DNA of 64,000 nucleotides, from contig CP154954.1 of the NCBI GenBank assembly GCA_039621445.1, positions 4,330,714-4,394,713 on the forward strand, in the 5' to 3' direction. Both the position numbers and the translations under genes were made by a program. This document shows, one piece after another, positions 7,647 to 63,575 of this stretch. Position 1 is the stretch's first letter; every line of letters begins with the position of its first letter. The notes beneath the pieces are model-generated. The model did not search any database, had not been told where the DNA came from, and worked only from the letters and a program-made list of their open reading frames with translations. This DNA is from Euglena gracilis (taxonomy: Eukaryota).

Positions 7647-8814
7647 ACCATTCAAAACCGCATTTGCCGTTCTTTTGAAACAAAAAAATTCTGAAACAGA
7701 CGAGTGTACAGACTAATGGTGGGCATATAAGCCCTTCAGCTGGTGGCATGCGCTGGAAAGCCAGAGTGCAGTCCAATTGGGTCGTCGATATCGAATTGCA
7801 AGTGGTGGGCAATCAGATGAGCACTTTGACAGGTTAGAGCCTTGGGTACAATTAAATTTGTGCAGCCTTTGGAGGCTTTGGCAAGGGGAGCCTGAGCAGA
7901 CATACACTTAGTGTGTTCACAAGGATGCTGGTGAACACATTTTTTTTTGGTGGACACAGGTGAACACAAAAAAATTTGGTGAACACAATAAAAAAAAACC
8001 TCAAAGATCGTTTGGCCCTAAACTTGAGCTGGCCGGACTTTTTTTCGGCCCATTTTGCAACCCCGAAAGCCAAAAATGCGTTACCGTCTAGCCGCCCTTC
8101 GGGCGGAGGCAAAAAAAAAAGTCAAAAGGCAAAGCTTTGCCGGCGGGGGGGGGGTTAACCTGGGGGCGGGGGTCCCACTTCCTTCGCCCCCCGGCTTCAT
8201 ATTTGGGCGGGAATTGAAGACCCTCAGAGGGTTTTATATTTGGGAAGGATATATATTTGGGGTGATCAAATTATTAAATGTGGCTTCTGTGACCTTCGGC
8301 GGCCTTCAATTGTGGCCGAACGCCGATTTTGTGTCAAATTTTCGGTGTTTTCTTCCTTATTCCCCCAAAAGTGTGCAATTATTGTGCAGATTGGGAACTG
8401 CGCATTGGGCAAAGCCCCCAAGAGGGAGGGTCCTGAAGTCAGGGGCAGGAGAGGAAAGGAGGAAGGGAGGCAAGAGTCCACGGAGGGGGTAAGGTGATAA
8501 GAAGCAGGCAAATTTTAGGCGTAAGGCAGCCACAGGTTAATACAGAAACAGTTTGAATGTGTGATTCTTGCCCACTCCCACTTTCTCCACTTACTCACCC
8601 ACCCACCCACCCACCCACTCACCCACACACCCACTTACTCACTTACTCACTCACACAAACACACACACACACACACATTATCTCTCCTTCTCTTCTGGAT
8701 CGGTGTTGCTGGGGAGAACTCCTTGGGGGGAACTCCTTGCCGACCCGAGAGTGTGTGCTTGTGGGGGAAATGTGTTGTCAGTCGGTGTGGGTGCGTGTGT
8801 TGTCAGTCTGTGTT

Positions 8815-8887
8815 GCGGTTTCGCCCCAGGCTGGCAGGTGGGGCATCGTCACGGGTGACGACCCTGCCAACCCTCGTCCCCGACCGC
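8815..8887 (-). ncRNA. Type III hammerhead ribozyme-like motif, copy 1 (C3G core variant)
   Basis: Minus strand: GCGG-UC / stem I GGGGACGA..UCGUCACCC / GUGACGAU / stem II GCCCCA..UGGGGC / GAAA-CCGC. Predicted cleavage between 8882 and 8881. Confidence 0.75.
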
Positions 8888-9322
8888 TCTTGTCTGGTGC
8901 AGACGGTTAAAAACGAGCTCTACGTCACCCTCCCGGGGGTGGGGGAGGGGGGTGGGGGGCTGAAAAAACCGGCCCCCAAAAACAAGGCAGCGCAGGACGG
9001 AAAAATGGCTCCGCCACCTACGGGACAGCACCCTTTGGGCTTTGGGGAGGGCGAGACAAGGCCCTTTCGGTGTGGAAAGCGGCAAAAATTGCCAAAAAAA
9101 ATACGGAACACACCCGAAGGCTTGGGGTGCGAGTACCCAAATTAAGCAGCCGGTCCTGGGGTCGCAGCACCAACCCCGGGGGGAGGGGGTGGCCTGAGCC
9201 GTCGGTTGCTCAGCAGAACCGTCGCGGGTTTAGCCCACAAAATGGGGCGCTGGGGGCATTGGGGTGCGAAACAACCGCGCCATGCAATTCTGGGAAAAAT
9301 GCCATGGAAAGCTCCATGGGAC

Positions 9323-9570
9323 CAGGGGTTTTTTTAAGACCGGGGGGGGGGAGGGGGGGTGGGGGGGCCCCGGGGGGGGAGGGGGTCCCGGGGGACCCAC
9401 AAAAAATGGCCGAAAAATCGCGAAAAGTGCCAAAAATAGAATTTTTTCGGCGCCTGCGGCGCCGAAAAGTATATCCCACCCCCCTGCGGGGGGGGGGGGG
9501 GGGCTCGGCCGGACCCCCCCACCCTACCCCCCCCTCCCCCCCCGGGGGTCCAAACTTAAAAAAATCCCTG
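9323..9570. mobile_element. hAT-like MITE inside the retrozyme-like spacer
   Basis: TIR CAGGGGTTTTTTTAAG / CTTAAAAAAATCCCTG; TSD CATGGGAC/CGTGGGAC. Confidence 0.85.
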
Positions 9571-9722
9571 CGTGGGACGCAGGGTCACTGCGTAAATCTC
9601 TCTTCTGGATCGGTGTTGCTGGGGGAACTCCTTGGGGGGAACTCCTCGCCGACCCGAGAGTGTGAGCTTGTGGGGAAGTGTGTTGTCAGTCGGTGTGGGT
9701 GCGTGTGCTGTCAGTCCGTGTT

Positions 9723-9795
9723 GCGGCTTCACCCCAGGCTGGCAGGTGGGGCATCGTCAGGGGTGACGACCCTGCCAACCCTCGTCCCCGACCGC
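9723..9795 (-). ncRNA. Type III hammerhead ribozyme-like motif, copy 2 (A15.1G variant)
   Basis: Minus strand: GCGG-UC / stem I / CUGACGAU / GCCCCA..UGGGGU / GAAG-CCGC. Predicted cleavage between 9790 and 9789. Confidence 0.75.
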
Positions 9796-9874
9796 TCTTG
9801 TTTGTTGGTTGCAGACCGTTACAAAAGAGCTCTGCGTCACCCTCCCGGGGGTGGGGGAGGGGGAGGCTGAAAAA

Positions 9875-10178
<304 letters not shown>

Positions 10179-12402
10179 TTTCAGAATTTTCATGCCATTG
10201 GCTGGCACTTTTCTTCCAGTTATTCCGTTTTATGAGGGTTTATTCCGGTTTTCGCTATTCCGGTATATTCCGGTTTATTACGGACCGGAATATCTCCCTG
10301 CCCCTGATTTCACTTTCCTTGCACCAAAAAATCAATGCACATTTCTCATAAAAACAATTTTGCAGTATTTTGCGGCATTTTCCAGGACTTTGTGAAAACT
10401 GCATGACTTTGCAGAATTTTGCAAAAAAAAGAAATCATTTTCTGAAAGATGGTGCAGGTGCTGGTGAAATGCTTATTTGGCATTGTTAGCCACTTTTTTA
10501 AACGAAAGAGGGTGGCAGAGAGCAAAGTGCGTGGAGAGCAATTATCACCCCCTTGACATGCATAATTGTTTTTGGGGGGTTGTGTGCGATTATTCATGAC
10601 TACTCGGTAATTTGTGATTTTGTATATTCCCAAATTTGTGCTGGTTCGTGATTATTCGTGATTACTCTGGCATAATTTGTGGAAATCTCAGGTACCTAAC
10701 TCATAAGAATACACATCTTCAATTGATTTTTTTTTCGGCTGAGGTCCAACAACTTTCATATTTTTTATTGTCTTCTTCCCCCGCACTTCTTGTTTATATT
10801 TGTTTTGATTTGTTTTGTTATATTCGCTCTCTGTGCTCATGCCATCTTCTGATTCTGGTGTGCAACAATCTGTGTCCCAAAGAACGAAACTGCAGAAAGT
10901 TGGGAGTAAGAAAACACAGCCGTCCAAACCTTCAAAGCTTCAGTTGCAAAAAGAGAAAAAGACAACATCGTTGTCCAAAAGAAAAAGCCCAATTCGTGAA
11001 ATTTCGTGACTTTCGTACCTGTCACCTAACAAATCCCCCCCTTGTCCTTGATACTCCAAAGAATGGGGAAAATGCAGTTGACACGGAGGGGGGGGGTGTC
11101 ATGGACACGCTGTGTCATGTGGACTGTACCATAAAAAAAGCATTTTTGTGTCATAGACCACCTATGTCAAGGTCAAGGGATTTCGACCTGGGAATCAGAA
11201 ACGGTGGCCGCCTTCGCGGAGGGGCACACTCCGTTACAACAAAGGCTGAAACAGGTGTTCTGTACAGGGCGCACGTATGGAAGGACCTGAGCCAGATGAC
11301 GCTCTGCAGAAACAAAACGTTAAAAGAAGGGGTTGAATACAAGAGAAAATGTGGCATGGATGATTTGTACATGCATATTTGAATTGATGGGTTGGCATAT
11401 GTTGCAAACTGGCAAACGGGAAAAAAAAGTGGTGGGGTATTGAATGGGTTAAATGCTTTTTTTCTTCCTGCGAGTGTGGAAGGAGGAAATATGAAATAAA
11501 ATCGAACCAGTGCCCCTGTGGTGGACATTTTAGATCCTCATTGATTACGCAGGCTGCTGGGACACCGAGCAATGTTGTCCTGAATAACACAAAATATCTG
11601 GTGCCTAAAGGTACATGCAGATCATCTGACTTCCATCCCTGAAAGCAGCACTGCTGGCAAAAACGATCATTATGAATTAAACAATCATCTACCTTGTAAA
11701 TAAATTCGCCAGAAATCCTGGGCCAGGGGGGTGGGGTATTTGGGAGGTTACAGCTCGGAAATTATTGTGAGATTTTGGGGCGAAAATTAAAAAATAAACA
11801 GCGAAAATTTTTCTTCCGGCGTGATGGGAAATGCATAAAAAAAATTCCTTCACCCTTTTCACGCTCATTTTAAGCATGGTGCCCACTTTGTGATGCTTGG
11901 GTATTTTCCACATGAAACTGTTTTCATTGCCCAGCGCAGCAAAGCCAAAAACTGGTCAGTGAAGGTCGCAACAAATCCAAAAATCCCCTCCTTTGGTGTT
12001 GTCAGGGGGAGATGTATTCCTCAGATCCTAAAAATGGCAGGTGAAATTTATTTGAGACAATCTTTCACACAACGAATTGAATTTGTCCTTTTTAAGGCAG
12101 GGACATCTGCGGGGTCAATCAGACGAACTGTTCAGTTGTGGTGACGCACAATGGACCAGGGACACTTCGCAATTGAGCCAATGAAAACATTCAGAGAAAT
12201 CAGCTGTCTGTTAAATTGATGTGCTGTGATTCCCCGCGGTAGAATACACTAAAGCAGGGCAAAGCAGTGAAGCCAAGAAATGGCGAAGGGCAAGGGACGA
12301 AACTCGATACCATTTCTGACCCCATCTGTGAATTATCAGTCTAAATGAAAAATAAATTATTGACAATACAAAAAAATACAAAAAGGTGAGGGGCGTCAGG
12401 TT

Positions 12403-17715: not shown

Positions 17716-18632
17716 TGGCTGCCAGAACCCTCCTCCCTTCAGAAAACTCGGTTTTGAGGTGGCTATTCACGGTGAGAAAAAGGACAATTTCTGATAACAA
17801 TCTGAAACCAGACAAAAAGTTGTTGGGATCGTCCAAGCGATGGCATGATCACAGCCTGGTGTTTCACAGGGGCATATAATGGATGGAAATGTTGCAATGC
17901 TGAATTGATGAGATTGCAGTTACAAGGGGGCTGGAATCAAACAGCAGAGTCATGGGTCATGGAGTGCAGATCAACTCCCAAAAAATGGAAGCAACCCTGC
18001 ATTATAAGCAATCACAAATGGGAGCAACCCCAAGGGCCGACATCAGACACCCAGACACTGATACTTTGTAATTTGTACTTTGTTCTTTGTACTTTGTCCT
18101 TTGTAAAATTTGACCAAAATCTGACAAAAATTTTGTAATTTTGTAAAAATTACAAACAATTTTAAGCATTCCATCAAAACACATACAGCCGACATAAACA
18201 TTTCAGTACAAATAACGTTGTTAAAAAAAATGTAAGAACTGAATGCAATTTTACCATTCTACGGGTGAGAAGGTTCTAGAGGTTCCGAAAAAAAAATGGC
18301 CCAAAAGTTTCCAAAGCGCCAAGGAAGAGCCAGTCACGCCCAGTCACGCCCAAGCACGCCCAGTCATTTAATGGGTGCTGGGCTTCAGGGAGGCTCCTCA
18401 GGTAACCAGGCCCACGGGGGATCCAAAAGTGACCAAAAATGAAGATTCCTAATTCTCTGGGACCCAGGTTTTTATTCTTTTCGGATTTGTAACATTGAAA
18501 CCCCTTTGTCTATGAACCTGTGTCCAGAAACAAAGACAAAGAGCAACTGCCAATAAAATTGTGTACACTCCAGGCAGTGAATGCTGAAGGCAGAAAACGT
18601 TAGAATATAGAGTGGGGTCCATAGGTTTGGTC

Positions 18633-18903
18633 CAGGCTTCTTTTTAAGACCCCCGGGGGGGGAGGGGGGGGGGCCACCCACCCAGGGTGGCGCGGGACCC
18701 CCCCCAGGGAGGGGACCCCCCCCAAAATCGGGCCCGTTAAAGGCAATTTTCAAAAATTTTCGGCGCTTCGCGCCGAAAAGGTATACCCAGCGCCTCTGGC
18801 GCGGGACCCCCCCCCCCCCCGCGGGGGGGGCCGGCCCGGACCCACCCACCCACCCCCCTCCCCCCGGGGGGGGGGCGGGTCAGGTGACTTAAAAAGAAGC
18901 CTG
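18633..18903. mobile_element. hAT-like MITE
   Basis: Perfect TIR CAGGCTTCTTTTTAAG / CTTAAAAAGAAGCCTG; perfect TSD GTTTGGTC; empty sites at ~15908 and ~24692. Confidence 0.92.
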
Positions 18904-21900
18904 GTTTGGTCCCAGGGTGTAGAGAATTTGATATGAAGGAGGGATATGGCAAACACATTTTAAAAATTACCCCGGGTGTCACAAACACACAACTTTCGTC
19001 CAGAAATGTGGCCCAACCAAGATCACTGCGCTGCTCATGATATATCCTGATAATGCAAAGAGAACAAATCTGAAAAGGAAATTAAAAATAAATTCTACGA
19101 AAACTTTCTGACTTCTTAAAATAAAGGCTTGTGATCGGACCAAATACAACATTTTAAGATGAAGCTTTCGTGAAAGGGCCATAATAAAATTTTGAGTGAC
19201 AGGAATTCGGCAAACGTTTGACCGAAAGTATATCACAGGCGTCAACCCAGAGACAATCGAAATAATAGTGGTCACGAACAAAAAGACCGCCTGCAGCTGG
19301 TTTGGTTGCACTGCACGGGCAACGAGGGCCGAGGAGGCGGGCTGAGGCGGGTTGGCTGCAGGCGTCACTTCACCGCCGAAGAAAACATGCCATTAATTAC
19401 CATACGTATTCTTTTAGGTGCAGTTATGGCAATGGCATTCAATAATTTGCCACCCACCCCACACAGGTGGCTGTTTGAGGCAAAGCATACCGGAAAATAT
19501 GGCACTGGATTCACACCCCAACACGCTGGGGGGCACCTCCCAAACCAGCAGGGCAATCTTGAGGGGAATTCCCACACTCCCAGAAATAACACTATGTCCG
19601 CCTAAGGGGCTTCTTCTGGCAGTTTTTTTCTTCAATGCCAAAGAACCCAACTACAAAAAAAAACTGCTTAGGGTGCCCTCGTTTTCAGAACAACCAAGAC
19701 AAGAAAAGGCGTACACAACGAAAGGCAAAGAAACACCGGAAAATCATTAACAACCATTCTTAACATTCCGTTTGGGCAGCTTCTTCCAGCCCCTTGTCCA
19801 TAATGAGAAAGGGCGAGGGCCGGCAGGTTTGCGGGATGTGCGGGGATGTGCAGGTTTTGGGGATTGAAAACATTTAGAGGGAGAGAGTCAAGACTTTGTA
19901 TGTAAGTGCCGCCGATGCCATAAATTTCTGCAACTAGCTGTTTCCTGTGAGAAGGCTCAATTTGAAAGTGTGTTTTTTCCCCCTCTCCAACAAATGACGG
20001 ATATTGACAATTGATCTGATACTGACGCCATCCTTCAAGCTTCAACATATCGGGCAAGAGATTGTTGGGACTGTCCAAGCGATGGTATGATCACGGCCCA
20101 GTGTTCTGCGGGGCGGCAAGCAGTGCATATGGGATGGGACAGTTGCAACGATGCAAATTTTGATGTAGTTGCGATGTGAGGGAGCCGTAAGCACCCCGCA
20201 GCGGAGCCTTGGGGCATGGAGTGCAGTTGGGTTTTTTTTCCCACTCAAACCACCCAAAAATGGACAAACAGCAAAATGGAATCAGCCCTACGCTTTTTCC
20301 CCGCTTTTTTCACGTTTTTTTTTTAACAACCATAAATGTGAGCAACCCCAAGAGCCAGCAACCCACACACACATATTATATATGAATATGTACAATACAT
20401 ATAAATATATTAAATACAAATAAAAAATCACATTTAATGATTTCATCGAAATCCAAACAGCCAATGCAATTTTCAGAAGAAATAGCATTGTTGTAAAATA
20501 AACAAGCAAATTTCAGCAGTTGATATCTTTAAAAAAATAATGAATACGAGTATACCAGGATATTTGCTTTCCTCCAAATATGTGGAAGGAAATTATTGGA
20601 TTCTGAAAACCAAAAGAAAAACCGACCTGATGTTGAGTGAATATGCCTTAAAAAAGAGAGCACCTCAGAACAAAACATCTTACACCCCAGGCAGTGAATG
20701 CTGGAAAGACACACAATCAGAATGCAAAATCTGAGACTGAGTGAGAGTGGGGCGTGAGCACACAGTCATTAGGCAGAGTGGGGTCAGGGCTGAGATTATT
20801 GATTCGAAGAAGGGATATGACAAATAAATTGGTTATTGAGAGGAATCTGACAGCATTCCATAACTTGAACATTCATTTTTGGCCATGGACTGATCTTAGG
20901 TCTGATATTTGGGGAACAGTCTGCTGGATTGTGCTGCACAGCTACTTCTTGGGGGGAGGGCTGCTTGGGGTGCTGCTCGTCATAAAATGGAAAATTTACA
21001 AGCATTTGCTTTGTAACATTTTTGAAAGGGTGAAGCAACTCACTCCATACAAAGTTTTGAGTGACAGAAAAGTTTGACCAAAGGTATAACAAACCCAAGG
21101 ACAATCGAAAGAATAGGGGTCATGAACAAAACGACCGCTCGCGGCTGGTATTTGCACAGCACGGGCAACGAGGGCAGAGCGGACAGGCTGAAACGCACAG
21201 TAGATCAGTGAAGCCAGGAAGGGGCGAGTAGCGAGGGAGGAGGATCCATACCATTTCTGACCCATCTGTGAATTCTCGGTGTATATGTGAAGGCGGTTGA
21301 GCAACGGCCAATTTGAGGGATCTCAGGGGGTCTGCAGGTATTGGGGATTGGCAACACTTACGGTGTACATTGGTCACATCCTTCTAGCGAGCGTCGTCAA
21401 CACTGTAAACCCTCCCAAAGTGAGACCCCACAAAATAAGAGTCCCCTTATAAGACCCCCCTGGGCCGATCGAGCAAAATTCCAAAAATAAGACACCCCTG
21501 ACCGCGAAATGTGCCGGGGACGGTAAAACACTTCCTACCAAAACAACCGATTTTAGACAAAAATGATGAAATTCCAAACAAATTCGGAATTTTGAAATGC
21601 TAAAAAAACATGGTAAATGCGTGTTTACATATGGCTCCGAAAGAAATTTTTCACTGTTTTTGAGAATTTGATAAACAATGAGTTTTTTTTGTGTTCCAGG
21701 GTTAGTCAAAGAAAGAAACCAAAAATAAAATAATCAAAAATAAGAGCCCCCTGGAGGTTTCCAGTCAGGGACTCAAAAATAGCAGCAGGTCCTTGTTTGG
21801 GGGGGGGGGTTAAATGGCTGCTAGAACCCTTCTCCCGTCAGAAAACTCGGTTTTGAGGTGAATACTCACGTATTCTGACAATCTGAAACTGACGCCGTTG

Positions 21901-25711: not shown

Positions 25712-28700
25712 GTTGGAATTGGAAGCATGGCCCATTGCCTTGCGGTTTGCTGGGGCGGCCCCAAGGACCGCCCTCGGTGGCAGGCTCGGCCGGAAGTCGG
25801 GTGGGCTCAAAGAAGGGCTCGGCCGGGTTGCTGGTCCGGGGCAAGGCGTACTCTCCAGCGTCGACGTCCATCGGGCGCACATGACTGCGCCGAAGCCTCC
25901 GGCGCCTTGACAACCCTTGAGGAGGGAGCGGGGTGGCATGAGCTGTGGGGGCCCAACCCATCACCGGGATGGCGGGCCCCACTGGGAACCAAACAGAAAA
26001 TTTTTACTTGAAAATGGTCACTGTTTGTGGTCGCCTCCGACGTCACATTGAAAACGATGGCGGGAAGGAGAAGGGGGGGGGGTTAAAAATCATCGCCAGA
26101 ATTCAATTGGAGCTAGGCTTCTTTTTTCAGGATGGTCGCACCCCGGAGGGGGTTGTGGGTTCTGCACGAGGGGGGAGGATACCTCTGGTTTTCTAGCTGG
26201 AAAGAAAGCCACCAGCTGTACCCTCCCGGGGGGAGGGGGTCCGTGGGGTCTCTCTAACCGGAAAACATTTCTTCTCCGGCGCTGCGTGCCAAGTTAAAAA
26301 GCTTGTGAAATTTTACTTTACTGTGAAATCCCGGACGACAAAAACGGGCACATTTGGGGGGGTTGTGAGTGGGGGGGGGGTTTACAGCTCAAAGAATATT
26401 TGAGCTATAAAAGAACTGTCAAAATAAAATACCGACCCCCAAAAAACCCCAAAGGTCCACTTTTGTAATAAAAAAAAAGTTTGATTGTGCCATGAAGTGC
26501 CAAAAAATCAGCTTTTCAGCGTTCTATGGACAAAAAAAAATCGTCCCCGGCGTCGTTCATTTTTCTTCCTGGGGGGGTAAATCAAAGTTTGTTGGGTCGG
26601 CCCGAGGGGGGGGGGGTTGCAAAGAGGGGGGTACGAACGGGGTTGGGGATCCACTCAAAAAAGAGGGAGGGGAATCCAATACATCAAATTTTGCAGTAAC
26701 ATGATGGGCAACGAGGAGTCCAGGGAAACAAGTTGCGGCATAGGGACCACAGTATCGCATCTTTGACTTGTTTGAGTCACGGACCTCTTGAGAGGGGTGG
26801 CCTCAAGACATGAGAAACCTACTTTGAGCAGTCATGTGGTGCTCATACGGAGGCGGAGGACAGCACTGGTGCGGCAGCACGCCAGGGGTTCTCGTAGGGA
26901 TGGAGCAGCCCACTGAAAAACAAAAGATAGACTAAAATAACTGTTGTAAAACCTTAGGGAATAATTTAAAATATGTATAAAAAAACAACAACCCAGCGTC
27001 GATAGTTTGTTTTGATTGTTTGTCTTCTTTTTACAAAATGCATCTGTTTTCAAATTCCATTCACACTGCACAAAATGGGCAATGCAAACAGGTTACTTTA
27101 AGGAACCTTGTTGGCCCTCTTTTGAGCTCGCTCTTCAAAGCTCGCCTGTTCCACACCGTGCTCCGGGAAAACTGCACACACCCCCGTCCGGTTTACGCTT
27201 CGGCGGAAAACAACCATTGGGAAACACCGGCCAACCCCACACCCCTGCCCTGCTTGGCACCGTTTGTTGAACCGGCTGGGAGGGGGGGCAAACCAAAACG
27301 CCTCCGGGCACCGGTCGGGGGAAGCCCCGAGCAAGGCGGGGGTGTGGGGGGCCGGGGGGCCCCCGAGGGGAGCGCGGCGCAGCGGACGAAGGGGGCGTCG
27401 GAACCCACGCTGGCGTCCGAGCTGGCGGGGCTGGAGGGGGAGGGGGCTGCGGGACAGGCCAGGGCTTGTCCCATTGCCTCGGGGGGGGGGGGGCTGCTGA
27501 GTTGCGGGCAAATAATCTAATTTTTTCTGTTTTCTTGTTTATTTCTAATTATTTTTAATTTATTTTCTAATTTCTAATTTCTTTCTAATGTCTAATTTAT
27601 TTCTAATGTCTAATTTATTTCTAATGTCTAATTTATTTCTAATGTCTAATTTATTTCCAATTTCTAATTCATGTCTAAATCATTTCTAATTATTTCTAAT
27701 TTATTTTCTAATTTCTAATTTATTTCTAATTTCTAATCATTTTTTTCAAGTGACAGATTAAGTTGTAGGTCAACTGGACGAATGGGCTCCTTTGTCGACA
27801 ACCGCAGTGGGTGGAGTGTTGGGGGGAATTTGACAAATAAAAACCACAAAACCCACCACTGCAGGATTTTTGGCCCGCGTCAGGGGATTTGGTATGTGTC
27901 CAGTCAACCATTTTTTTGTGTATCCACCATGGCACCCAGTCAAAGAAAATTCCAAAGGCACTGAAAGAAAAATTTGCCAAAAATCGGCACCCCCGGAAAT
28001 ACGAGGGAGGGGGGGGGTCGCCCCCCCCGCCTGCCACCAGTATGGGGGTGGAGGGTTCATCGAGCCCTCCCCAACCACCACCCATAGGGTTGCGGGGTTT
28101 GCCATACAGCCCTGGATGAAAAGGAAGCATTTGAGGTTGGGGTTTGGTCCTCCAAACACAGAGGTGGGGCGGACCCCCGCTGACAAGTCGATACTGAAAG
28201 GGGTCGGCAAAAATTTCGGTTGTGTAAACTCGCCAAAGGCCGTGAAACAGGTCAAACTTGCACAAGAATCCTGATGTTTCTTTGGAAAAAACCCAATTCA
28301 AAGATGCTCATTTTTTTGAATTATTTGAATAATTCAAATAATTTTTTGTGTGGAAAACACCAAATCATAAAAAGGTGTGCAACCCCATCGGACCCTCTGG
28401 TCCAGACCCCACACCACTTTACACCCCGGAGTGTGCAGGGGGTGTTCGGGACCACCGCTACCACGAAATATTGCAGTGCAATAATGAAATGTGATGTCGA
28501 TGTTGCAGACTTAAACATGACTTGTCCCTCTGTGGCACCCCTCCAGGTGACGATAGCTGATACCCTTCCCCCTGCCGCCAAAGACCCCTGTCAATTTGTT
28601 GGGGGTGGGCCCAAGGAGGGTGTTCAGGGGGCAGGAGCGGGGGGGTCCCCCTCCCTCCTGGACCAGAGGTGGGGTTCGACCCCCCACCTACCTCATATCG

Positions 28701-34267: not shown

Positions 34268-37200
34268 TCATTTAAAGCCCAGGCGGAGGCTTCCATCGGC
34301 CTCAGAGCACTGTTGCGCACCTCGGTGGACTCTTCGCCGCGACCTGGAATGGAGCACTGTGGGGGGTTGCCACTGACAACGTGTCAACAGCAGCATAGAC
34401 AGCGATCGCCCACTGCATATCCAGGTTACAGTGAAGCACTCCTGGACATGGGGGACCAATGTGGTCGGACGCGACGAAAAGTTCAAAAGTTTCAGCCCCC
34501 GACTGGAACTAGGCCCGAGCTGAGGTGGATCCGAACCAGAATTTGGCACCAGAAATCGAAACTGCAAAAGTGGTCGAGAATCGCCAATTAAAATAAATAT
34601 TTTGACCCGAAAATTTGGCTGGCTAGCTGTTTCCTGCCCCCTTTTGCCAACTTCGATAGATGGGGGGGCTAGAGCTTGAAAAAGGTGGCTGGCTGGCTGG
34701 ACCCAACCCTGGGGATGGAGTTCCTGTCGGCTTCAGCAAATCCCTGTTTTGAGCCCGTTTGAAAAATCAAAAACCATTTGATAATCCCTCGTCCCTGAAA
34801 CGGTCTCCCTCATCGACGGGGGGCTGCCCACGAGAGGCCAACCCGCCTGCCGCCACCCCGGGCTGCGGTACGGTGCCCTGGACCAGCCGGACGACCTCCC
34901 CGTTCAGGTACGGGCTCTCCACCGCGACTTGCACCAGCGCCGCGAATTCCTCCGGCCGGCCGAGGCGCTTCGGGAATGGCACTGGACGCAGCAAATGGCC
35001 CGATGCTGGCTTTTGGGAAAACGTTGAGCGGTCAAGCAGACATCCTTCTCAAAAAAAAAAACGACACCCGGGTCTATTGTTTGGGCCGGTGCTCAACATC
35101 CTGGGGGTTCGTTTTTCCAGGTATTATATATGTATAATACTTATATATATGTGTAAGGAGAGAGGAGAGAGATTATATAGAGAGAGCGATAGAGGTGTTA
35201 TATATAATAATATATAGATCTAGATATATTATATAGATGATAATATATAGATAGAGATATATTGAGAGATAAGAGATATATATATATTATAATATATATA
35301 TATATATATATAGATATATATATAGATTTATATATATATATATATATATATAGTAATATATATATATATATATTATATATATATACATATTTGGATCTCC
35401 GGGGAAATTTTTCAGGAAAAAAAAGGTTAAAAAGTGCAAATTCTAACACAAATTAAATGGGCAAAAACAAAAAAGCCAAAAATGTCCCTTTGGGGCATTT
35501 TCACAACTTTAAGGGTTTAGCCTTCTCAATTCTTTCAAAAAATGCGGGGTGTCTTAATTAAATGACTTTGGTGTTTTGCTGAAAACTGAAGTGGGGCTGG
35601 AAATTTGGGTGTTTAGGGAAGGGAACTGCAACTGAACCCAGGGTGCACCAGCGAGGAAAAATACAATCCCAAATAAAATACCACATACATATATCTCACA
35701 ACTTCTTTCCTCGATTTGTTTTCACACGCAACAGAGATGACGGGGAAAGACTCAAAACAATCAATCACCATTACTGCATTTGTTTTCACCCCACCAACAC
35801 CCTTCTGAACAGCAAAAAGACTGTATGCACAATCAATTTTAAATGTGCTTTTGCCCATAAGGAATGGGAAAAATCACAAAATACTCGATCTTCGCTATGC
35901 ATACAGCCAAATTTACAAAGCCATCGTCTGGCCTGCTGGGCCAACACCTCCCGAGCCGCGGCGGGCACGGTCTCCGTCATCATCTGCGTCTCAAACATGC
36001 CGGGGGCGATCTGGAGGGGGGGGGGCGACGAAATTCATCCCAAAATTTTCGTAGGTCATATTGTGATCCCTACTCATTCGGCTTCGCAACTTTAAATAAA
36101 CACCCCAAATGTAACAGCCCCCCAAATAAAAAAAAAAATCCTCTGAGGACCTTGAAATCCCCCCCAAATATAAACCCCCCCCTCCGGCGCGAAGCGTGGG
36201 AAGGAAAGTTATATGACATAATATCTCCTCAAATTGTGATCCTTGGAAGATTTGGGAGCCCCCCAGATATAAACCCCCCGGTTTTATATTCGGAGGGAAA
36301 TTTCAAGACCCCCAGGGGCGTTTTATATTTTGGAGGGTTTTATATTCGGTCGGAAAAATCAACTTCTTGGCGGGATCCAGTAGTCGCTTTTCTTTTTAAT
36401 CACAGATACGCCCACCCTTGGGAGTCCGAACATTTCACTTTTAGGGCGAAGGAGCAAATTTCACATGTTTTTGGTAGGGGTTACGTCGCCGCATCAAGGC
36501 TACTCCAGAATTCCATCAACATGGCAAAATCGGAGAGTGGGTGGGGAGAAGTTTCTTGGGTGATTCGAAAATTACGGGGCATTTTGAATAAGTCCCGAAA
36601 AACGCAGGTTTTCCAATTGCTGCCACACCTCTTGCAAGATTTGAGCTTGGGGCCCACGTTTCAAAGGTGGCTACACTCGGGACGCCCATTGCAAAAGCCC
36701 TCCCCGTGCAGTGCAAAAGCCAGACCATGGCACACCAGACCATGACCTGAAAAGGCTTGGACTGCCCTATGGGGTTGCTCCCCCAAATCCAATGATCACT
36801 TTCCTGGGGGGAAGAAGCGGCCACAACCAGCAGAAGTGTAGACCTTAGTGGGGAGGGTCGCCCCCTTCAAAATCCGGTCACAAAAATATGCAAATGAAAA
36901 TTTTTCACTTTTTATTTCCTGGTTTGATGGGGAGGGATCAGGGGTTTTTTTTAGTCTTGGACCCCGTCCCCGGGGGGGAGGGGGGGTAAGGTGGACGGGT
37001 CTTGGACCTGGGCCTTGGACTCCCCTCCCCCCCCCCCTGGGGGCTGGGGGGGTGGGTATTGGGGCTGGTGGGTATTGGGGCTTTTTCGGGGCCGAATTAT
37101 TTTGGGGGCCCACCCCAGGGGGTGGGTGGGTGAGTGCTGACCCCCCCGGTCTTAAAAAAAAACCCTGGGAGGGATGTGACCTCTGCGCCTCAGGAGCTGC

Positions 37201-40765: not shown

Positions 40766-43700
40766 CATACATTCATACATACATACATACATACATACAT
40801 ACATACATACATACATACATACATACATACATACATACATACATACATACATACATACATACATACATACATACATACATACATACATTCATACATACTT
40901 ACATACATATACAAACGCCTTAAAGATCTTAAAAAATAGAGTTTACGATTTTTTTAAAAAAAAAAACTCTCTTCCCAGCACCCTGCAGAGGCCCTGGCAG
41001 GTCCCGCGCCATGGGCAGCGTCAGGGCGGCCACGGCGCCCTTCGAGGCGGCGTACGCAGCCTGCCCGCTCTGCCCGTCGAAGGCGGCAATGGACGCAGTG
41101 TTGACCAGCACGCCACGCTGCCCCACAGCGTCCGGGGCAGTGGCCCGCATGCGGGCTGCGGCCAGCCGGCAGACGTTGAATGTGCCAGCCACGTTGACGG
41201 TGAGGACCTGCGAGTGGGGACGGGGGGAGGTCAACCTGTGGAACATGTGATGTGTGGGGTGCATGTGTCACGCATGACAGAGTTGCCACGTGTGGCACGT
41301 ACGGTGTGGAAGGTGTGGCACGTTTGGCAGGTGTGACTCATGAGGCACGCGTGGCAAATAATATACCCCTTCAACCAACCACTTGCTCTCGTAACCGAGA
41401 ACATTAAAAAAAAAACAATACTTTCAATTGCTCAAAATTTTATTCATAATCCATGCTCCTGTGATATGGTCGTGCAACGTTCCTGTGCAGTGAGTCGTTG
41501 AGGTGGGGGGAAATTCAAAACAACACAACCGGTAAAATAAACACCGGGGTTTTTTTCAGACCGGGGGGAGGGGGTACAAGGGATCCACCCCCCTACCCCC
41601 CCCCCCCCGGGGGGAGGGGTCCAAGACTAAAAAAAAACCCCTGACACCGACATATCGCCTAGGCAACGTCCTTCCTCTTTTTTATCTGGCAAAAAAACGA
41701 CAAGTTGATGGAAACTTTGTGGGTTGCCAGCAACTGTGGGTAACAAAGCAGCCACGCGCGTGGCGGACCTTCAAGAAATCATTGAGTTTGTGGGGCCCCT
41801 TCTTGCCCACCGTCTTGGAGGCCACCAGGATGCCCGCACAGTTGACTGCCACGTTGACCTCCGACTGAAAGGTGCGCTGGGCAAGGTCAGGGGACAGCCT
41901 GTCTCCGGGTGCTGGGAGTCCTGAGTGGAAGTCGACCATGTATCCCAGAGGACAGAGCAGGACTCTATGGGAAGGCCTGCTCCAGGAACGGACCCGCCCA
42001 CAAGATAACTGTTCAAACAAAAAAAATTCATTTCCAAAATGAAACAATGAGGTCGTTATGGGTTGGCTAACTCAGGACAGCCAGGCAGGCAGGAGGCGAG
42101 CTTTGCCACTCCACCACCCCATCCGAAACAACAGCCATTTGGAATCGTGGGGGTGTGCCCCAGCGGCGGCCTGCTTCAGCGCCGCCTCCACATCCGCCTC
42201 GGAGGTCACATCCACGGGAGCAAATGCCGCGTTGGGGCCGAGCTCCTGGTGTGAGGTGGGGACAGGGAAACAGAGGACACCACGGGTAGTGCCATGATAA
42301 CAAAAATGAATGTGCATGTGAGAGCGGAAACACGGAATGAATAAAAGGCCGGAAGGCCAGAAGACGTCGGTTTTCTTTTGTAAAAATACACAATGTTTCT
42401 TTGTGTCTGCCACAAGGACTCAAAAACCGAAATAAATGAAATGTCTGAATATGCATATATTTGGGTGACTCTTGGAGGCTATCCCTGCTAGCGTGCACCT
42501 CTAGGCACTTAGCATTTTGGCGGTGTTGCCTGAATTTGCCGGGATTTGTCGGGATTTGAAAAATGGTGGTGGGGTCCCAGCCACATGAGTAATGGCCACA
42601 TCTGGGTCACCTTTGGCTACTGTTGCCCAAAATTGTTGCCATGTTTGTCCATTTTTGACTCTTTCTGTCACTACTAAACCACTTTTGGCCACTCTTGGGT
42701 ACTTTTTTGCTATTGTTGATTGTTGTTATTCACTTTGCCAAACTTTCGGCCACGTTTTGCTGCCTTGGACTGCCTTCCACTTCTGCTGACTGTTGGCTAC
42801 TTTTTGCTGCGTATGGCTTCAAAAAAGCATAAAAAACATCTTGCAATGATGCTCTTTGCAAAAATTATTTGCATGTTTGCTTGGTATTTTGTTGGGATTT
42901 GTTGGGATTTGTCGGGATTTGTCAGGATCTGTCACTGGAGGTGCTTGCTGCTAGCAACCCCCCCCCCCGGCACGCCAGGTGGTCCACTGGTATTCCAAAT
43001 TTGAACTAGGTGCAGCCGAGCCCAGGAGCCCAGCCCCCCCACCAGAGGGGGGGGGGGGGTACTGCGAACCCTTAAGCCAAGGCTCACCCCTGATGAACGT
43101 TTGCCCCTCGTGCCACTGGCCAAAGCGTCACGAAGGGTCCCGGACCTGGGCCAACCGGGCGGCGCCGGACGACGGGAGGTCGGCCAGCACGACACGGGCG
43201 CCCTGCTCCACGAACCGCAGTGCGGTGGCCCGGCCGGGGGGCAGCCATCCCTTGCCACGGGGGGGGGGGGGGGGGCTGGTTGGGGGCCAAAGGCTGCCGA
43301 GAACGGGCAAATAATGACCCCAAGCGCCTGAAAGGGGGGAACACTGGTCAAAATTGCGTCAAAATGAACAGAAATGGCCCAAAGTTGGTATCACCGAATG
43401 GGTTGTGACCAGGGTGTCGCTTGGTGACACCCCGGGGGGGGGGGGGTCCAGCTCACAGGAAAAAATGGCCTGGCTGGAAAAAATTCTGTTTGCTGACCCC
43501 CCGTGGAGATCCCAGAGCTGAAACGGGGCCCAACCAAGGGTCGAACACCTAAAATGCCGAAAAGATGCAGAAAACTGCTTTTTGACCAAAAAAAAAGCCC
43601 TTGGCCCTGGCACATAACAAAATGATTTCGCCCGATTTCGCCCCTGGCACATAACAAAATGAATAAATAAAATAAAATAAAACTATATGACCTGGGGTGG

Positions 43701-55021: not shown

Positions 55022-63575
<8,554 letters not shown>

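What the first reader, a model, noticed from the sequence alone, without database searches (positions are those of the whole stretch)
8815..8887. 10-bp loop I-loop II kissing interaction in the hammerhead
Seen: loop I contains GGUUGGCAGG and loop II is CCUGCCAGCC, complementary over 10 positions with one G-U, identical in both copies. Established: loop I/II tertiary contacts activate natural hammerheads. Inference: an unusually long Watson-Crick pseudoknot variant. Its presence makes a chance match to the core very unlikely, though it could also act as a competing helix.
Basis: partly seen in the sequence, partly recalled or inferred. Interest (0 to 1): 0.75.

Follow-up and report, generated by a model that had tools for sequence, protein, structure and literature searches.

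The report
Hammerhead ribozyme with self-complementary loops
Two decayed copies of a self-cutting hammerhead RNA from a highly repeated, transcribed element carry end loops that can pair over 10-11 bases, and this pairing probably acts as an on/off folding switch, not simply as an activating contact.

Summary
On the minus strand, loop I GGUUGGCAGG (8872..8863) and loop II CCUGCCAGCC (8838..8829) are complementary over 10 positions with one G-U, or 11 with a second G-U. They are identical in the copy 908 bp away. Loop shuffles reach 10 or more in 1004 of 200000 trials.

The host is a type III hammerhead inside ~275-bp direct repeats of a retrozyme-like element. Both window copies carry core damage: C3>G in copy A, and A15.1>G plus C11.1>U in copy B. 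Rfam calls neither. Public reads of the same organism show a very abundant, transcribed family whose majority letters restore the canonical core at all three sites.

Nested folding uses the same complement as an ordinary stem. A second 7-bp helix pairs the stem I 3' strand with the CUGACGA box, so the core is hidden (P = 0.98 in the unit-length RNA; hammerhead stems P = 0.00).

My best reading (confidence 0.5) is a bistable switch: a partial 6-7 bp kiss in the nascent active fold, and the full helix in the stable inactive fold. Watson-Crick loop contacts of 4-6 bp are already known, so this is a new variant of a known kind. I could not test covariation.

The parts
8815..8887 (-). Copy A, type III hammerhead-like motif. 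Stem III 8883-8887/8815-8819; cleavage site between C8882 and G8881. Stem I 8874-8881/8853-8861 (8 bp, A8856 bulged). Core box 8846-8852 reads GUGACGA, so position 3 is G instead of C. Extra U8845. Stem II 8840-8844/8823-8827. GAA 8820-8822.
   Evidence: majority of family reads have C at position 3
8862..8873 (-). Loop I of copy A (GGGUUGGCAGGG); 8872..8863 is the 10-nt complement.
8828..8839 (-). Loop II of copy A (ACCUGCCAGCCU); 8838..8829 is the 10-nt complement. A8839-U8828 could instead extend stem II to 6 bp.
8845..8862 (-). Inner hairpin of the competing fold: GUCGUCA (8862..8856) pairs with UGACGAU (8851..8845), so the stem I 3' strand pairs with the catalytic box.
   Evidence: MFE structures
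9723..9795 (-). Copy B, the same motif 908 bp away. Canonical CUGACGA box, but 11.1 is U (9731) and 15.1 is G (9727). Cleavage site between C9790 and G9789. Loops at 9770-9781 and 9736-9747 are identical to copy A.
   Evidence: reads restore C11.1 and A15.1
8689..8963 (-). Downstream (3') direct repeat that holds copy A.
   Evidence: 21 mismatches and 7 gap columns in 279 aligned columns against the other repeat
9599..9874 (-). Upstream (5') direct repeat that holds copy B.
8964..9598 (-). Non-coding interior between the repeats. The unit from cleavage site to cleavage site is 908 nt, or 652 nt without the inserted MITE.
9323..9570 (.). 248-bp MITE inserted in the interior. It has 16-nt terminal inverted repeats and 8-bp target duplications (9315-9322 and 9571-9578). 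It is not part of the ribozyme element.
   Evidence: I16; joint 9316>9573 skipping 256 in 55+1 RNA reads of X24, 7 DNA contigs and 1 soil RNA contig; other copies in the window

Best explanation
The complement belongs to a type III hammerhead carried by a highly repeated, transcribed, retrozyme-like element. The element has ~275-bp direct repeats, each with one ribozyme, and the unit is ~650 nt once a later MITE insertion is removed. The two window copies are decayed and probably cut poorly or not at all. In the family, I think the 10-11 nt complement is the moving part of a two-state fold.

On state (inferred): while the RNA is being made, the stem I and stem II hairpins form locally. Part of the complement, about 6-7 GC-rich pairs such as GGCAGG/CCUGCC, then docks loop I on loop II. 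This would supply the stem I/stem II tertiary contact that natural hammerheads need at low Mg2+.

Off state (predicted by calculation): the full 11-bp helix forms as an ordinary stem. The stem I 3' strand UCGUCA changes partner from GACGA to the catalytic UGACGA box. Stems I, II and III are lost, so the cut or religated (circular) RNA is locked against further cleavage.

What is shown: the complement, its non-randomness, the canonical family core, transcription of the family, and the energy ranking of the nested folds. What is inferred: the kiss, the switch, circular RNA, and cleavage itself.
For: The complement is real and rare by chance.

Its two G-U pairs would be C-A mismatches on the + strand, and the + strand folds less well (-29.0/-26.0 against -35.9/-35.8 kcal/mol). 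The helix is therefore specific to the ribozyme-sense RNA.

Hammerhead identity: these are the only 2 sites at <=1 core mismatch in 128 kb of both strands. Sixty shuffled windows gave 23 loose hits but 0 with stems I>=8, II>=5, III>=5.

Family majority letters restore the core:
- Position 8852, + strand G: 39 of 42 X24 RNA reads, 6 of 8 X21 reads, and 10429 of 18324 of X1 DNA depth.
- Position 9727, + strand T: 11 of 11 X24 reads.
- Position 9731, + strand G: 9 of 9 X24 reads, against 1937 of 5721 of X1 DNA depth.

One soil-metatranscriptome contig (X19 record 10) differs from copy B at 7 listed places over 9573-9786. Two of these restore the core and none is in either loop.

Off state: the 73-nt MFE of -35.9 uses the complement as a stem, against -25.9 for the hammerhead fold. 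In the 908-nt and 652-nt unit RNAs, linear or circular, P(alternative helix) is 0.977-0.985 and P(stems I, II, III) is 0.000.

With loop I forced unpaired, the hammerhead fold becomes the MFE (-28.5), so the complement itself creates the competitor.

On state: the bimolecular duplex energy is -18.6 (10 bp), -11.7 (best 7 bp) and -10.1 (best 6 bp). Adding 6-7 bp to the hammerhead fold gives about -36 to -37.6, roughly equal to the competitor.

The usual type III loop motif (5' U in loop 1, 3' A in loop 2; PMC2632901, abstract read) is absent, which leaves the complement as the only visible candidate for the tertiary contact.

Stem I (8 bp) minus stem II (6 bp with A-U) is 2 bp. This is the difference that a supplementary figure legend quoted in the main text of PMC3088659 (passages read) links with pseudoknots in type III hammerheads.

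Precedent for transient activity: hammerheads of avsunviroids are active only during transcription (PMC11722881, passages read), and retrozyme hammerheads are hidden in a stable hairpin in MFE folds (PMC4918200, passages read).
Against: No covariation could be examined. The loops are invariant in the three sequences I could resolve, and a pair that never varies says nothing either way. In any case, covariation at these positions would not separate a kiss from a nested helix.

The nested prefix folds never favour stem I at any transcript length when 30 nt of upstream sequence are included. The 5' part of the motif pairs upstream instead.

The MFE of the 73-mer is not unusual against dinucleotide shuffles (z = -1.17 and -1.00).

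No pile-up of RNA ends was seen at the predicted cleavage site (table 6: none), and no read evidence distinguishes circles from linear multimers.

Rfam hammerhead models give no hit even at E<=10.

The pseudoknot energies are simple sums with no steric term.

Confidence: 0.5

Rival explanations
1. Pure off-state helix. The complement exists only to fold the ribozyme region into a stable hairpin that hides the catalytic core in the mature (possibly circular) RNA. It plays no part in the active fold, and the active fold relies on other, unseen contacts or on none.
For: The nested model gives the alternative helix P = 0.98 and the hammerhead stems P = 0.00 in unit-length RNA. The alternative fold is 10-12 kcal/mol more stable than the hammerhead secondary structure. 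A second helix of 7 bp between the stem I 3' strand and the CUGACGA box cooperates with it. Retrozyme and avsunviroid hammerheads are known to be hidden in their most stable folds (PMC4918200, PMC11722881, passages read).
Against: Once stems I and II are formed, two adjacent loops with -10 to -18 kcal/mol of pairing potential would be expected to touch. No conventional loop-loop motif is present to do the activating job (against the PMC2632901 abstract). Known hiding partners in retrozymes lie outside the hammerhead, not in its own loops.
Confidence: 0.2
2. One reading: a full 10-bp Watson-Crick loop I/loop II pseudoknot that activates the hammerhead, with the competing hairpin irrelevant in vivo.
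For: Ten to eleven contiguous pairs are possible. The simple sum of the hammerhead fold (-25.9) and the 10-bp duplex (-18.6) is -44.5, below the competitor at -35.9. Watson-Crick pseudoknots of 4-6 bp are proven activators in other hammerheads (PMC3088659, PMC11300833, PMC7936874, passages read).
Against: Only one linker nucleotide flanks the paired stretch on each side of loop I, and 0-1 on each side of loop II. By general RNA geometry (inference, not computed here), kissing helices closed by stems rarely exceed 6-7 bp. Published hammerhead pseudoknots in the passages I read are 4-6 bp. In PMC3088659, small changes in the register around the pseudoknot cut activity by orders of magnitude. The strongly favoured nested competitor cannot be ignored.
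Confidence: 0.15
3. No selected function. The element is a decaying repeat and the complement is a by-product of G-rich/C-rich loop composition or of an ancestral hairpin. The window copies are dead relics.
For: Both window copies have core substitutions. There is no Rfam hit. The 73-mer MFE is not exceptional. One-mismatch hammerhead-like motifs with weak stems occur at 0.38 per shuffled window. The loop compositions are biased, which raises chance complementarity about tenfold over random loops (1004 against 89 of 200000).
Against: Even with composition kept, chance is 0.5%. The G-U pairs make the helix strand-specific. The family majority and nearly all RNA reads carry the canonical core at the three damaged positions. 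Stems as good as these never arose in 60 shuffles.
Confidence: 0.15

Closest known systems
Hammerheads that use a Watson-Crick pseudoknot between the stem I loop and the stem II loop or tail (Perreault et al. 2011, PMC3088659; passages read)
   Same: Base pairing between loop I and the loop II region takes the place of non-canonical loop contacts. It is reported for types I, II and III. [quoted passage not shown]
   Different: The pseudoknots in the passages read are 4-6 bp; here 10-11 contiguous pairs are possible. Here the same complement also builds a nested competitor fold. No activity or covariation data exist for this one.
[quoted passage not shown] 2021, PMC7936874; passages read)
   Same: Type III topology; helices and loops larger than the usual 6 bp + 6-8 nt and 4 bp + 4 nt; helix II of 6 bp; Watson-Crick/wobble contact between the helix I and helix II loops. 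The YGGC/GCCR words occur here too (UGGC in loop I, GCCA in loop II), on the opposite sides.
   Different: Their contact is 4 bp and uses an internal loop of helix I capped by an extra hairpin. Here both partners are terminal 12-nt loops and the complement is 10-11 nt. There is no sequence similarity that I could test.
Plant LTR retrozymes (Cervera, Urbina and de la Pena 2016, PMC4918200; PMC7229834 and PMC7761336; passages read)
   Same: A type III hammerhead in each of two direct repeats that flank a non-coding interior. The distance between ribozymes is 908 nt (652 without the MITE), against 600-1000 nt. GC is 61-63% against >55%. The hammerhead is hidden in the most stable predicted fold. 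The family is transcribed.
   Different: No tRNA-Met primer binding site, and no polypurine tract or clear 4-bp target duplication. The repeats are ~275 bp instead of 300-400 bp. The family is far more abundant than the tens to about a hundred copies quoted for plants. The host organism is unknown to me. The hiding partner lies inside the ribozyme's own loops.
Avsunviroid hammerheads, which are active only during transcription (PMC11722881, PMC1636495; passages read)
   Same: A ribozyme that is active in a transient fold and silent in the most stable fold of the mature RNA. An extra residue between A9 and G10.1 is tolerated, and U there raised the rate 3-4 fold in CChMVd (PMC3705267, passage read).
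   Different: This one is genome-encoded and highly repeated. A ribozyme is seen in one polarity only. The loop-loop complement doubles as the switch helix.

Membership tests
Hammerhead ribozyme, type III | Three helices around a junction, with stems I and II capped by loops and stem III open | tested here: met
   My own descriptor scan finds stem I 8 bp (one bulge), stem II 5-6 bp and stem III 5 bp at 8815-8887 and 9723-9795. This fold has -25.9/-23.7 kcal/mol. Zero sites with stems this good arose in 60 shuffled windows.
Hammerhead ribozyme, type III | Conserved core C3 U4 G5 A6 N7 G8 A9 ... G12 A13 A14, with A15.1-U16.1 and a non-G at position 17 | tested here: not met
   Copy A has G at position 3. 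Copy B has G at 15.1 and U at 11.1. Both have GUC at the cleavage site. The family majority letters in reads are canonical at all three places, so the family meets the feature but the window copies do not.
Hammerhead ribozyme, type III | Match to the curated Rfam hammerhead covariance models | tested here: not met
   There are 0 matches at gathering score in 64 kb. None of the 36, 4 and 3 matches at E<=10 is a hammerhead. The consensus form could not be submitted.
Hammerhead ribozyme, type III | Site-specific self-cleavage | not testable with these tools
   No excess of RNA ends at 8881/8882 or 9789/9790 in the reads laid (table 6: none). Such libraries need not capture 5'-OH ends.
Pseudoknot-stabilised hammerheads (Perreault 2011) | Four or more Watson-Crick pairs possible between loop I and the loop II region | tested here: met
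   10 bp with one G-U, or 11 with a second.
Pseudoknot-stabilised hammerheads (Perreault 2011) | Pairing supported by covariation or by disruptive and compensatory mutants | tested here: inconclusive
   Only three resolvable sequences (copies A and B, and the X19 contig), all with identical loops. No relatives were found in metagenome, genome or viral contig scans.
Plant LTR retrozyme | Type III hammerhead inside each of two direct repeats, 600-1000 nt apart, non-coding, GC >55% | tested here: met
   The repeats are ~275 bp, a little short of the 300-400 bp quoted.
Plant LTR retrozyme | tRNA-Met primer binding site after the 5' repeat and a polypurine tract before the 3' repeat | tested here: not met
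   The recalled 12-nt PBS motif has 4 matches at <=2 mismatches in the window, none inside 8689-9874. The sequence before the 3' repeat is not a purine run.
Plant LTR retrozyme | 4-bp target site duplication | tested here: inconclusive
   Both ends abut microsatellites and the exact ends of the repeats are uncertain.
Metazoan non-LTR retrozyme | Type I hammerhead in short tandem repeats of 150-450 bp with GC <50% | tested here: not met
   The ribozyme is type III, the unit is 652-908 nt and GC is 61-63%.

The most novel reading that the evidence does not exclude
A hammerhead with a built-in two-state switch. One and the same 10-11 nt loop I/loop II complement first acts as the activating kissing contact in the nascent RNA. 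After the stem I 3' strand changes partner to the catalytic box, it becomes the stem of a hairpin that locks the ribozyme off in the mature, probably circular, RNA. The switch would belong to a very abundant, transcribed type III retrozyme-like family that lacks the plant PBS/PPT hallmarks and whose RNA turns up in soil and leaf-litter metatranscriptomes.
Probability: 0.3. Interest if true: 0.65.

Novelty: new variant of a known kind. Interest (0 to 1): 0.42.

Why it matters
Natural hammerheads must cut fast while they are being made and then stay quiet in the finished or circular RNA. How a given sequence encodes both states is usually explained by partners outside the ribozyme. Here both states could be written into the ribozyme's own two loops, which would give a compact, easily mutated model for kinetic control of a ribozyme and for engineered switches. 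It also flags a hammerhead family that current Rfam models miss. The family is very abundant and expressed in its host, and its RNA pool looks enriched for intact cores compared with the genomic copies. That is what one would expect if only self-cutting copies accumulate. If the complement turns out to be just a competing stem, the case is an ordinary example of a hidden retrozyme ribozyme.

Tried and rejected
- **Rfam:** the whole window at gathering score and three local scans at E<=10 gave no hammerhead or any other ribozyme.
- **Own genome:** none is held.
- **Relatives for covariation:**
  - The metagenome contigs pattern scan gave 2 loci, both unrelated bacterial hairpins on reading.
  - Genome contigs gave 0 and 0.
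  - Viral contigs gave 0 and 0.
  - Earlier findings of this scan gave nothing by place or by sequence.
  - Four sequence strings were found in no paper of the library.
- **More copies in the window:** blastn and nhmmer find only the two copies of the ribozyme element. The other hits are the MITE or microsatellites.
- **G3:C8 core swap** (a lead from an earlier finding): rejected for copy A, because position 8 is still G.
- **HDV-like double pseudoknot:** rejected, because the helix order here is stem/loop-loop/stem, not P1-P2-P3-P1'-P4-P2' (my reading).
- **DNA palindrome or plus-strand RNA structure:** rejected, because the two G-U pairs become C-A on the + strand and that strand folds worse.
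- **Splicing as the cause of the 256-nt skip in RNA:** rejected, because the same joint is in DNA contigs and equals a MITE plus one target duplication.
- **Host identification by proteins:** 40 of the 45 ORFs of >=150 aa were scanned against Pfam and gave 0 families. The 5 not scanned were 8561-9145, 9070-9870, 27770-28255, 59044-59544 and 62311-62763.
- **Supplementary figures** of PMC3088659 (S4, pseudoknot statistics) and PMC4918200 were not seen. They may hold longer pseudoknots or similar retrozymes.

Full report
**1. What is in the sequence**

Read on the minus strand, 8887..8815 is:

GCGGU-C | GGGGACGA-[GGGUUGGCAGGG]-UCGUCACCC-GUGACGA-U-GCCCC-[ACCUGCCAGCCU]-GGGGC-GAA-ACCGC.

This has the layout of a type III hammerhead:
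- Stem III is open (GCGGU/ACCGC, 5 bp).
- The cleavage triplet is GUC.
- Stem I has 8 bp with A8856 bulged and is capped by a 12-nt loop.
- The CUGANGA box comes next, followed by an extra U.
- Stem II has 5 bp (6 if A8839-U8828 pairs) and is capped by a 10-12-nt loop.
- GAA and A15.1 follow.

GGUUGGCAGG is 8872..8863 and CCUGCCAGCC is 8838..8829. Each has just two perfect matches in the window, the second set 908 bp away. They pair over 10 positions with one G-U, and G8873-U8828 adds an eleventh pair.

The complement is rare by chance:
- Shuffling the two loops with their skewed compositions kept gives a run of 10 or more in 1004 of 200000 trials, and 11 or more in 221 of 200000.
- Random loops at 57% GC give 10 or more in 89 of 200000.

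**2. The two copies are damaged, but the family is not**

The two copies differ at three places within the 73 nt:
- Copy A has G instead of C at core position 3 (8852).
- Copy B has the canonical CUGACGA box.
- Copy B has U at 11.1 (9731) and G at 15.1 (9727).

Rfam reports no hammerhead at gathering score. It reports none among the sub-threshold matches of three local scans either (36, 4 and 3 matches).

My own descriptor scan finds these two sites and no others in both strands of the window at one core mismatch or fewer, and none at zero mismatches. In 60 dinucleotide-preserving shuffles of the window there were 23 loose one-mismatch hits (0.38 per window), but none with stems as good as here.

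No genome is held for this window. I therefore searched public runs and laid four of them on 8689-9874 at 80% likeness or more.

One DNA run of the same coded organism gave 101,661 contig pieces, most of them 90-95% alike. This is a very abundant and diverse repeat family.

At each of the three damaged positions the majority letter restores the canonical core:

| Position (+ strand letter) | Restores | X24 RNA | X21 RNA | X1 DNA depth |
|---|---|---|---|---|
| 8852 G | C3 | 39 of 42 reads | 6 of 8 reads | 10429 of 18324 |
| 9727 T | A15.1 | 11 of 11 reads | 2 of 2 reads | 2820 of 3474 |
| 9731 G | C11.1 | 9 of 9 reads | 0 of 2 reads | 1937 of 5721 |

The RNA pool of X24 therefore looks enriched for intact cores compared with the DNA. 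The caveats are small numbers, different samples, and reads being assigned to whichever copy they fit best.

In the size-fractionated RNA run (X24), first mates lie on the + strand about ten to one. That step is an inference.

A 338-nt contig from a soil metatranscriptome (X19) covers 9573-9786 with seven listed differences and one insertion. Two of the differences restore the core, and none lies in either loop.

None of the 40 difference rows shown lies in a loop. However, 152 rows were not shown, so this is only weak evidence that the loops are the family majority.

**3. The element**

Each ribozyme sits in a ~275-bp direct repeat, at 8689-8963 and 9599-9874. The repeats differ by 21 mismatches and 7 gap columns in 279 aligned columns. 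They flank a non-coding interior.

The cleavage-to-cleavage unit is 908 nt. Most RNA reads, 7 DNA contigs and the soil contig skip 9317-9572. That segment is a 248-bp MITE with 16-nt terminal inverted repeats and 8-bp target duplications, and it has other copies in the window. The ancestral unit is therefore 652 nt, with GC 61%.

This resembles a plant LTR retrozyme in several ways: a type III ribozyme in each repeat, 600-1000 nt between ribozymes, GC above 55%, and a hammerhead hidden in the stable fold (PMC4918200, PMC7229834, passages read). But I found no tRNA-Met primer site (motif recalled), no polypurine tract and no clear 4-bp target duplication. I also could not place the host: 40 of 45 ORFs of 150 aa or more gave no Pfam family. 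I therefore call it retrozyme-like and do not file it as a member.

**4. What the complement does**

Two facts pull in different directions.

First, the nested thermodynamic model uses the complement as an ordinary stem.
- The 73-mer MFE (-35.9 and -35.8 kcal/mol) has the 11-bp helix. It also has a 7-bp inner hairpin in which the stem I 3' strand GUCGUCA pairs with the catalytic UGACGAU.
- The hammerhead secondary structure has only -25.9 and -23.7.
- In the 908-nt and 652-nt unit RNAs, linear or circular, the alternative helix has probability 0.977-0.985 and stems I, II and III have 0.000.
- With 30 nt of upstream sequence, the prefix folds never favour stem I.
- If loop I is forbidden to pair, the hammerhead fold becomes the MFE (-28.5). 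The complement itself therefore creates the competitor.

Second, a family that keeps a canonical core must fold into the hammerhead at some point, and natural hammerheads need a stem I/stem II contact at physiological Mg2+.
- The usual type III motif (5' U of loop 1 with 3' A of loop 2; PMC2632901, abstract read) is absent.
- Watson-Crick pseudoknots between these loops are established activators in all three hammerhead types. They are typically 4-6 bp (PMC3088659, PMC11300833, PMC7936874, passages read).
- Adding the best 6-7 bp of the complement (-10.1 to -11.7) to the hammerhead fold gives about -36 to -37.6, level with the competitor. All 10 bp (-18.6) would give -44.5.
- I doubt all ten can form. 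Loop II would have no linker or one, and loop I one on each side. Kissing helices closed by stems are, from general RNA geometry, limited to roughly 6-7 bp. This is my inference and was not computed.

The two G-U pairs would be C-A on the other strand, and that strand folds worse. The helix therefore belongs to the ribozyme-sense RNA.

**5. Verdict on mechanism**

My best reading (confidence 0.5) is a bistable element. A partial kiss forms in the nascent, active fold. The full helix plus a partner swap of the stem I 3' strand forms in the stable, inactive fold of the mature, possibly circular, RNA. This matches the known habit of avsunviroid and retrozyme hammerheads of being active only during transcription (PMC11722881, PMC1636495, PMC4918200, passages read).

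The rivals are:
- an off-state helix only (0.2);
- no selected function (0.15).

Covariation could not be examined. The loops are identical in the three sequences I could resolve, and every collection scan for relatives came back empty or unrelated. Covariation at these positions would show pairing, but it would not by itself separate a kiss from a nested stem. Mutants and probing are needed for that.

**6. Comparison and novelty**

The closest known things are:
- pseudoknot-stabilised hammerheads (Perreault 2011);
- the atypical long-helix type III hammerheads of HDV-like agents and insect genomes (de la Pena 2021);
- plant LTR retrozymes.

New here are the length of the possible loop-loop pairing (10-11 nt against 4-6 bp in the passages I read), its double use as the stem of a self-hiding hairpin, and the fact that Rfam models miss the family.

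The extra U between A9 and G10.1 is a known tolerated variant (PMC3705267, passage read).

I rate it a new variant of a known kind, with interest 0.42.

Noticed in passing
window 9323-9570 (target duplications at 9315-9322 and 9571-9578): A 248-bp MITE with 16-nt terminal inverted repeats (CAGGGG/ATTTTTTTAAG) and an 8-bp target duplication (7 of 8 identical), rich in G and C runs, is inserted in the interior of the element. The TIR start and the 8-bp duplication recall hAT-type elements (recalled, not tested). Other copies lie at about 18618-18919, 36865-37167, 57876-58132 and 60953-61241, with a partial one at 41564-41651.
   Followed up: partly
window 8852, 9727, 9731: RNA reads of run X24 carry the canonical hammerhead letters almost exclusively (39 of 42, 11 of 11 and 9 of 9). 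DNA contig depth is mixed (57%, 81% and 34%). This could mean that only self-cutting copies accumulate as RNA, or it could be a mapping or sample effect.
   Followed up: partly
window 9199-9316 and 9573-9786 (run X19): A 338-nt contig from a soil metatranscriptome matches the MITE-free form of the unit with 11 differences. A leaf-litter metatranscriptome also holds a small share of the words, but I did not lay it. So RNA of this family, or of its host, is present in at least the soil sample that was laid.
   Followed up: partly
window 8888-8917, minus strand: In nested prefix folds, the 30 nt upstream of copy A (CUCGUUUUUAACCGUC...) pair with the stem III 5' strand, the cleavage site and the stem I 5' strand. 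This is a second way of hiding the ribozyme. The pairing is weaker in copy B.
   Followed up: partly
window 9877-10186 and 8590-8680: The element is bounded by long microsatellites. Upstream (in ribozyme sense) is a (GA)n-(TA)n-(CT)n block that forms a near-palindrome and draws spurious miRNA-model hits. Downstream are (TG)n and (GGGT)n-like runs. Other genomic copies also show (CT)n next to the + strand start of the repeat (loose ends at 9597).
   Followed up: no
whole window: No Rfam family reaches its gathering score in 64 kb, and 40 of the 45 ORFs of >=150 aa that I scanned have no Pfam family. The window looks like gene-poor, repeat-rich eukaryotic DNA (GC 42-58% in 2-kb steps).
   Followed up: partly
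window 9342-9385 and 9486-9531: Very high RNA and DNA depth with poly-G loose ends over the G/C runs of the MITE. This probably mixes real repeat copies with poly-G sequencing artefacts, so depth there should not be read as expression.
   Followed up: no
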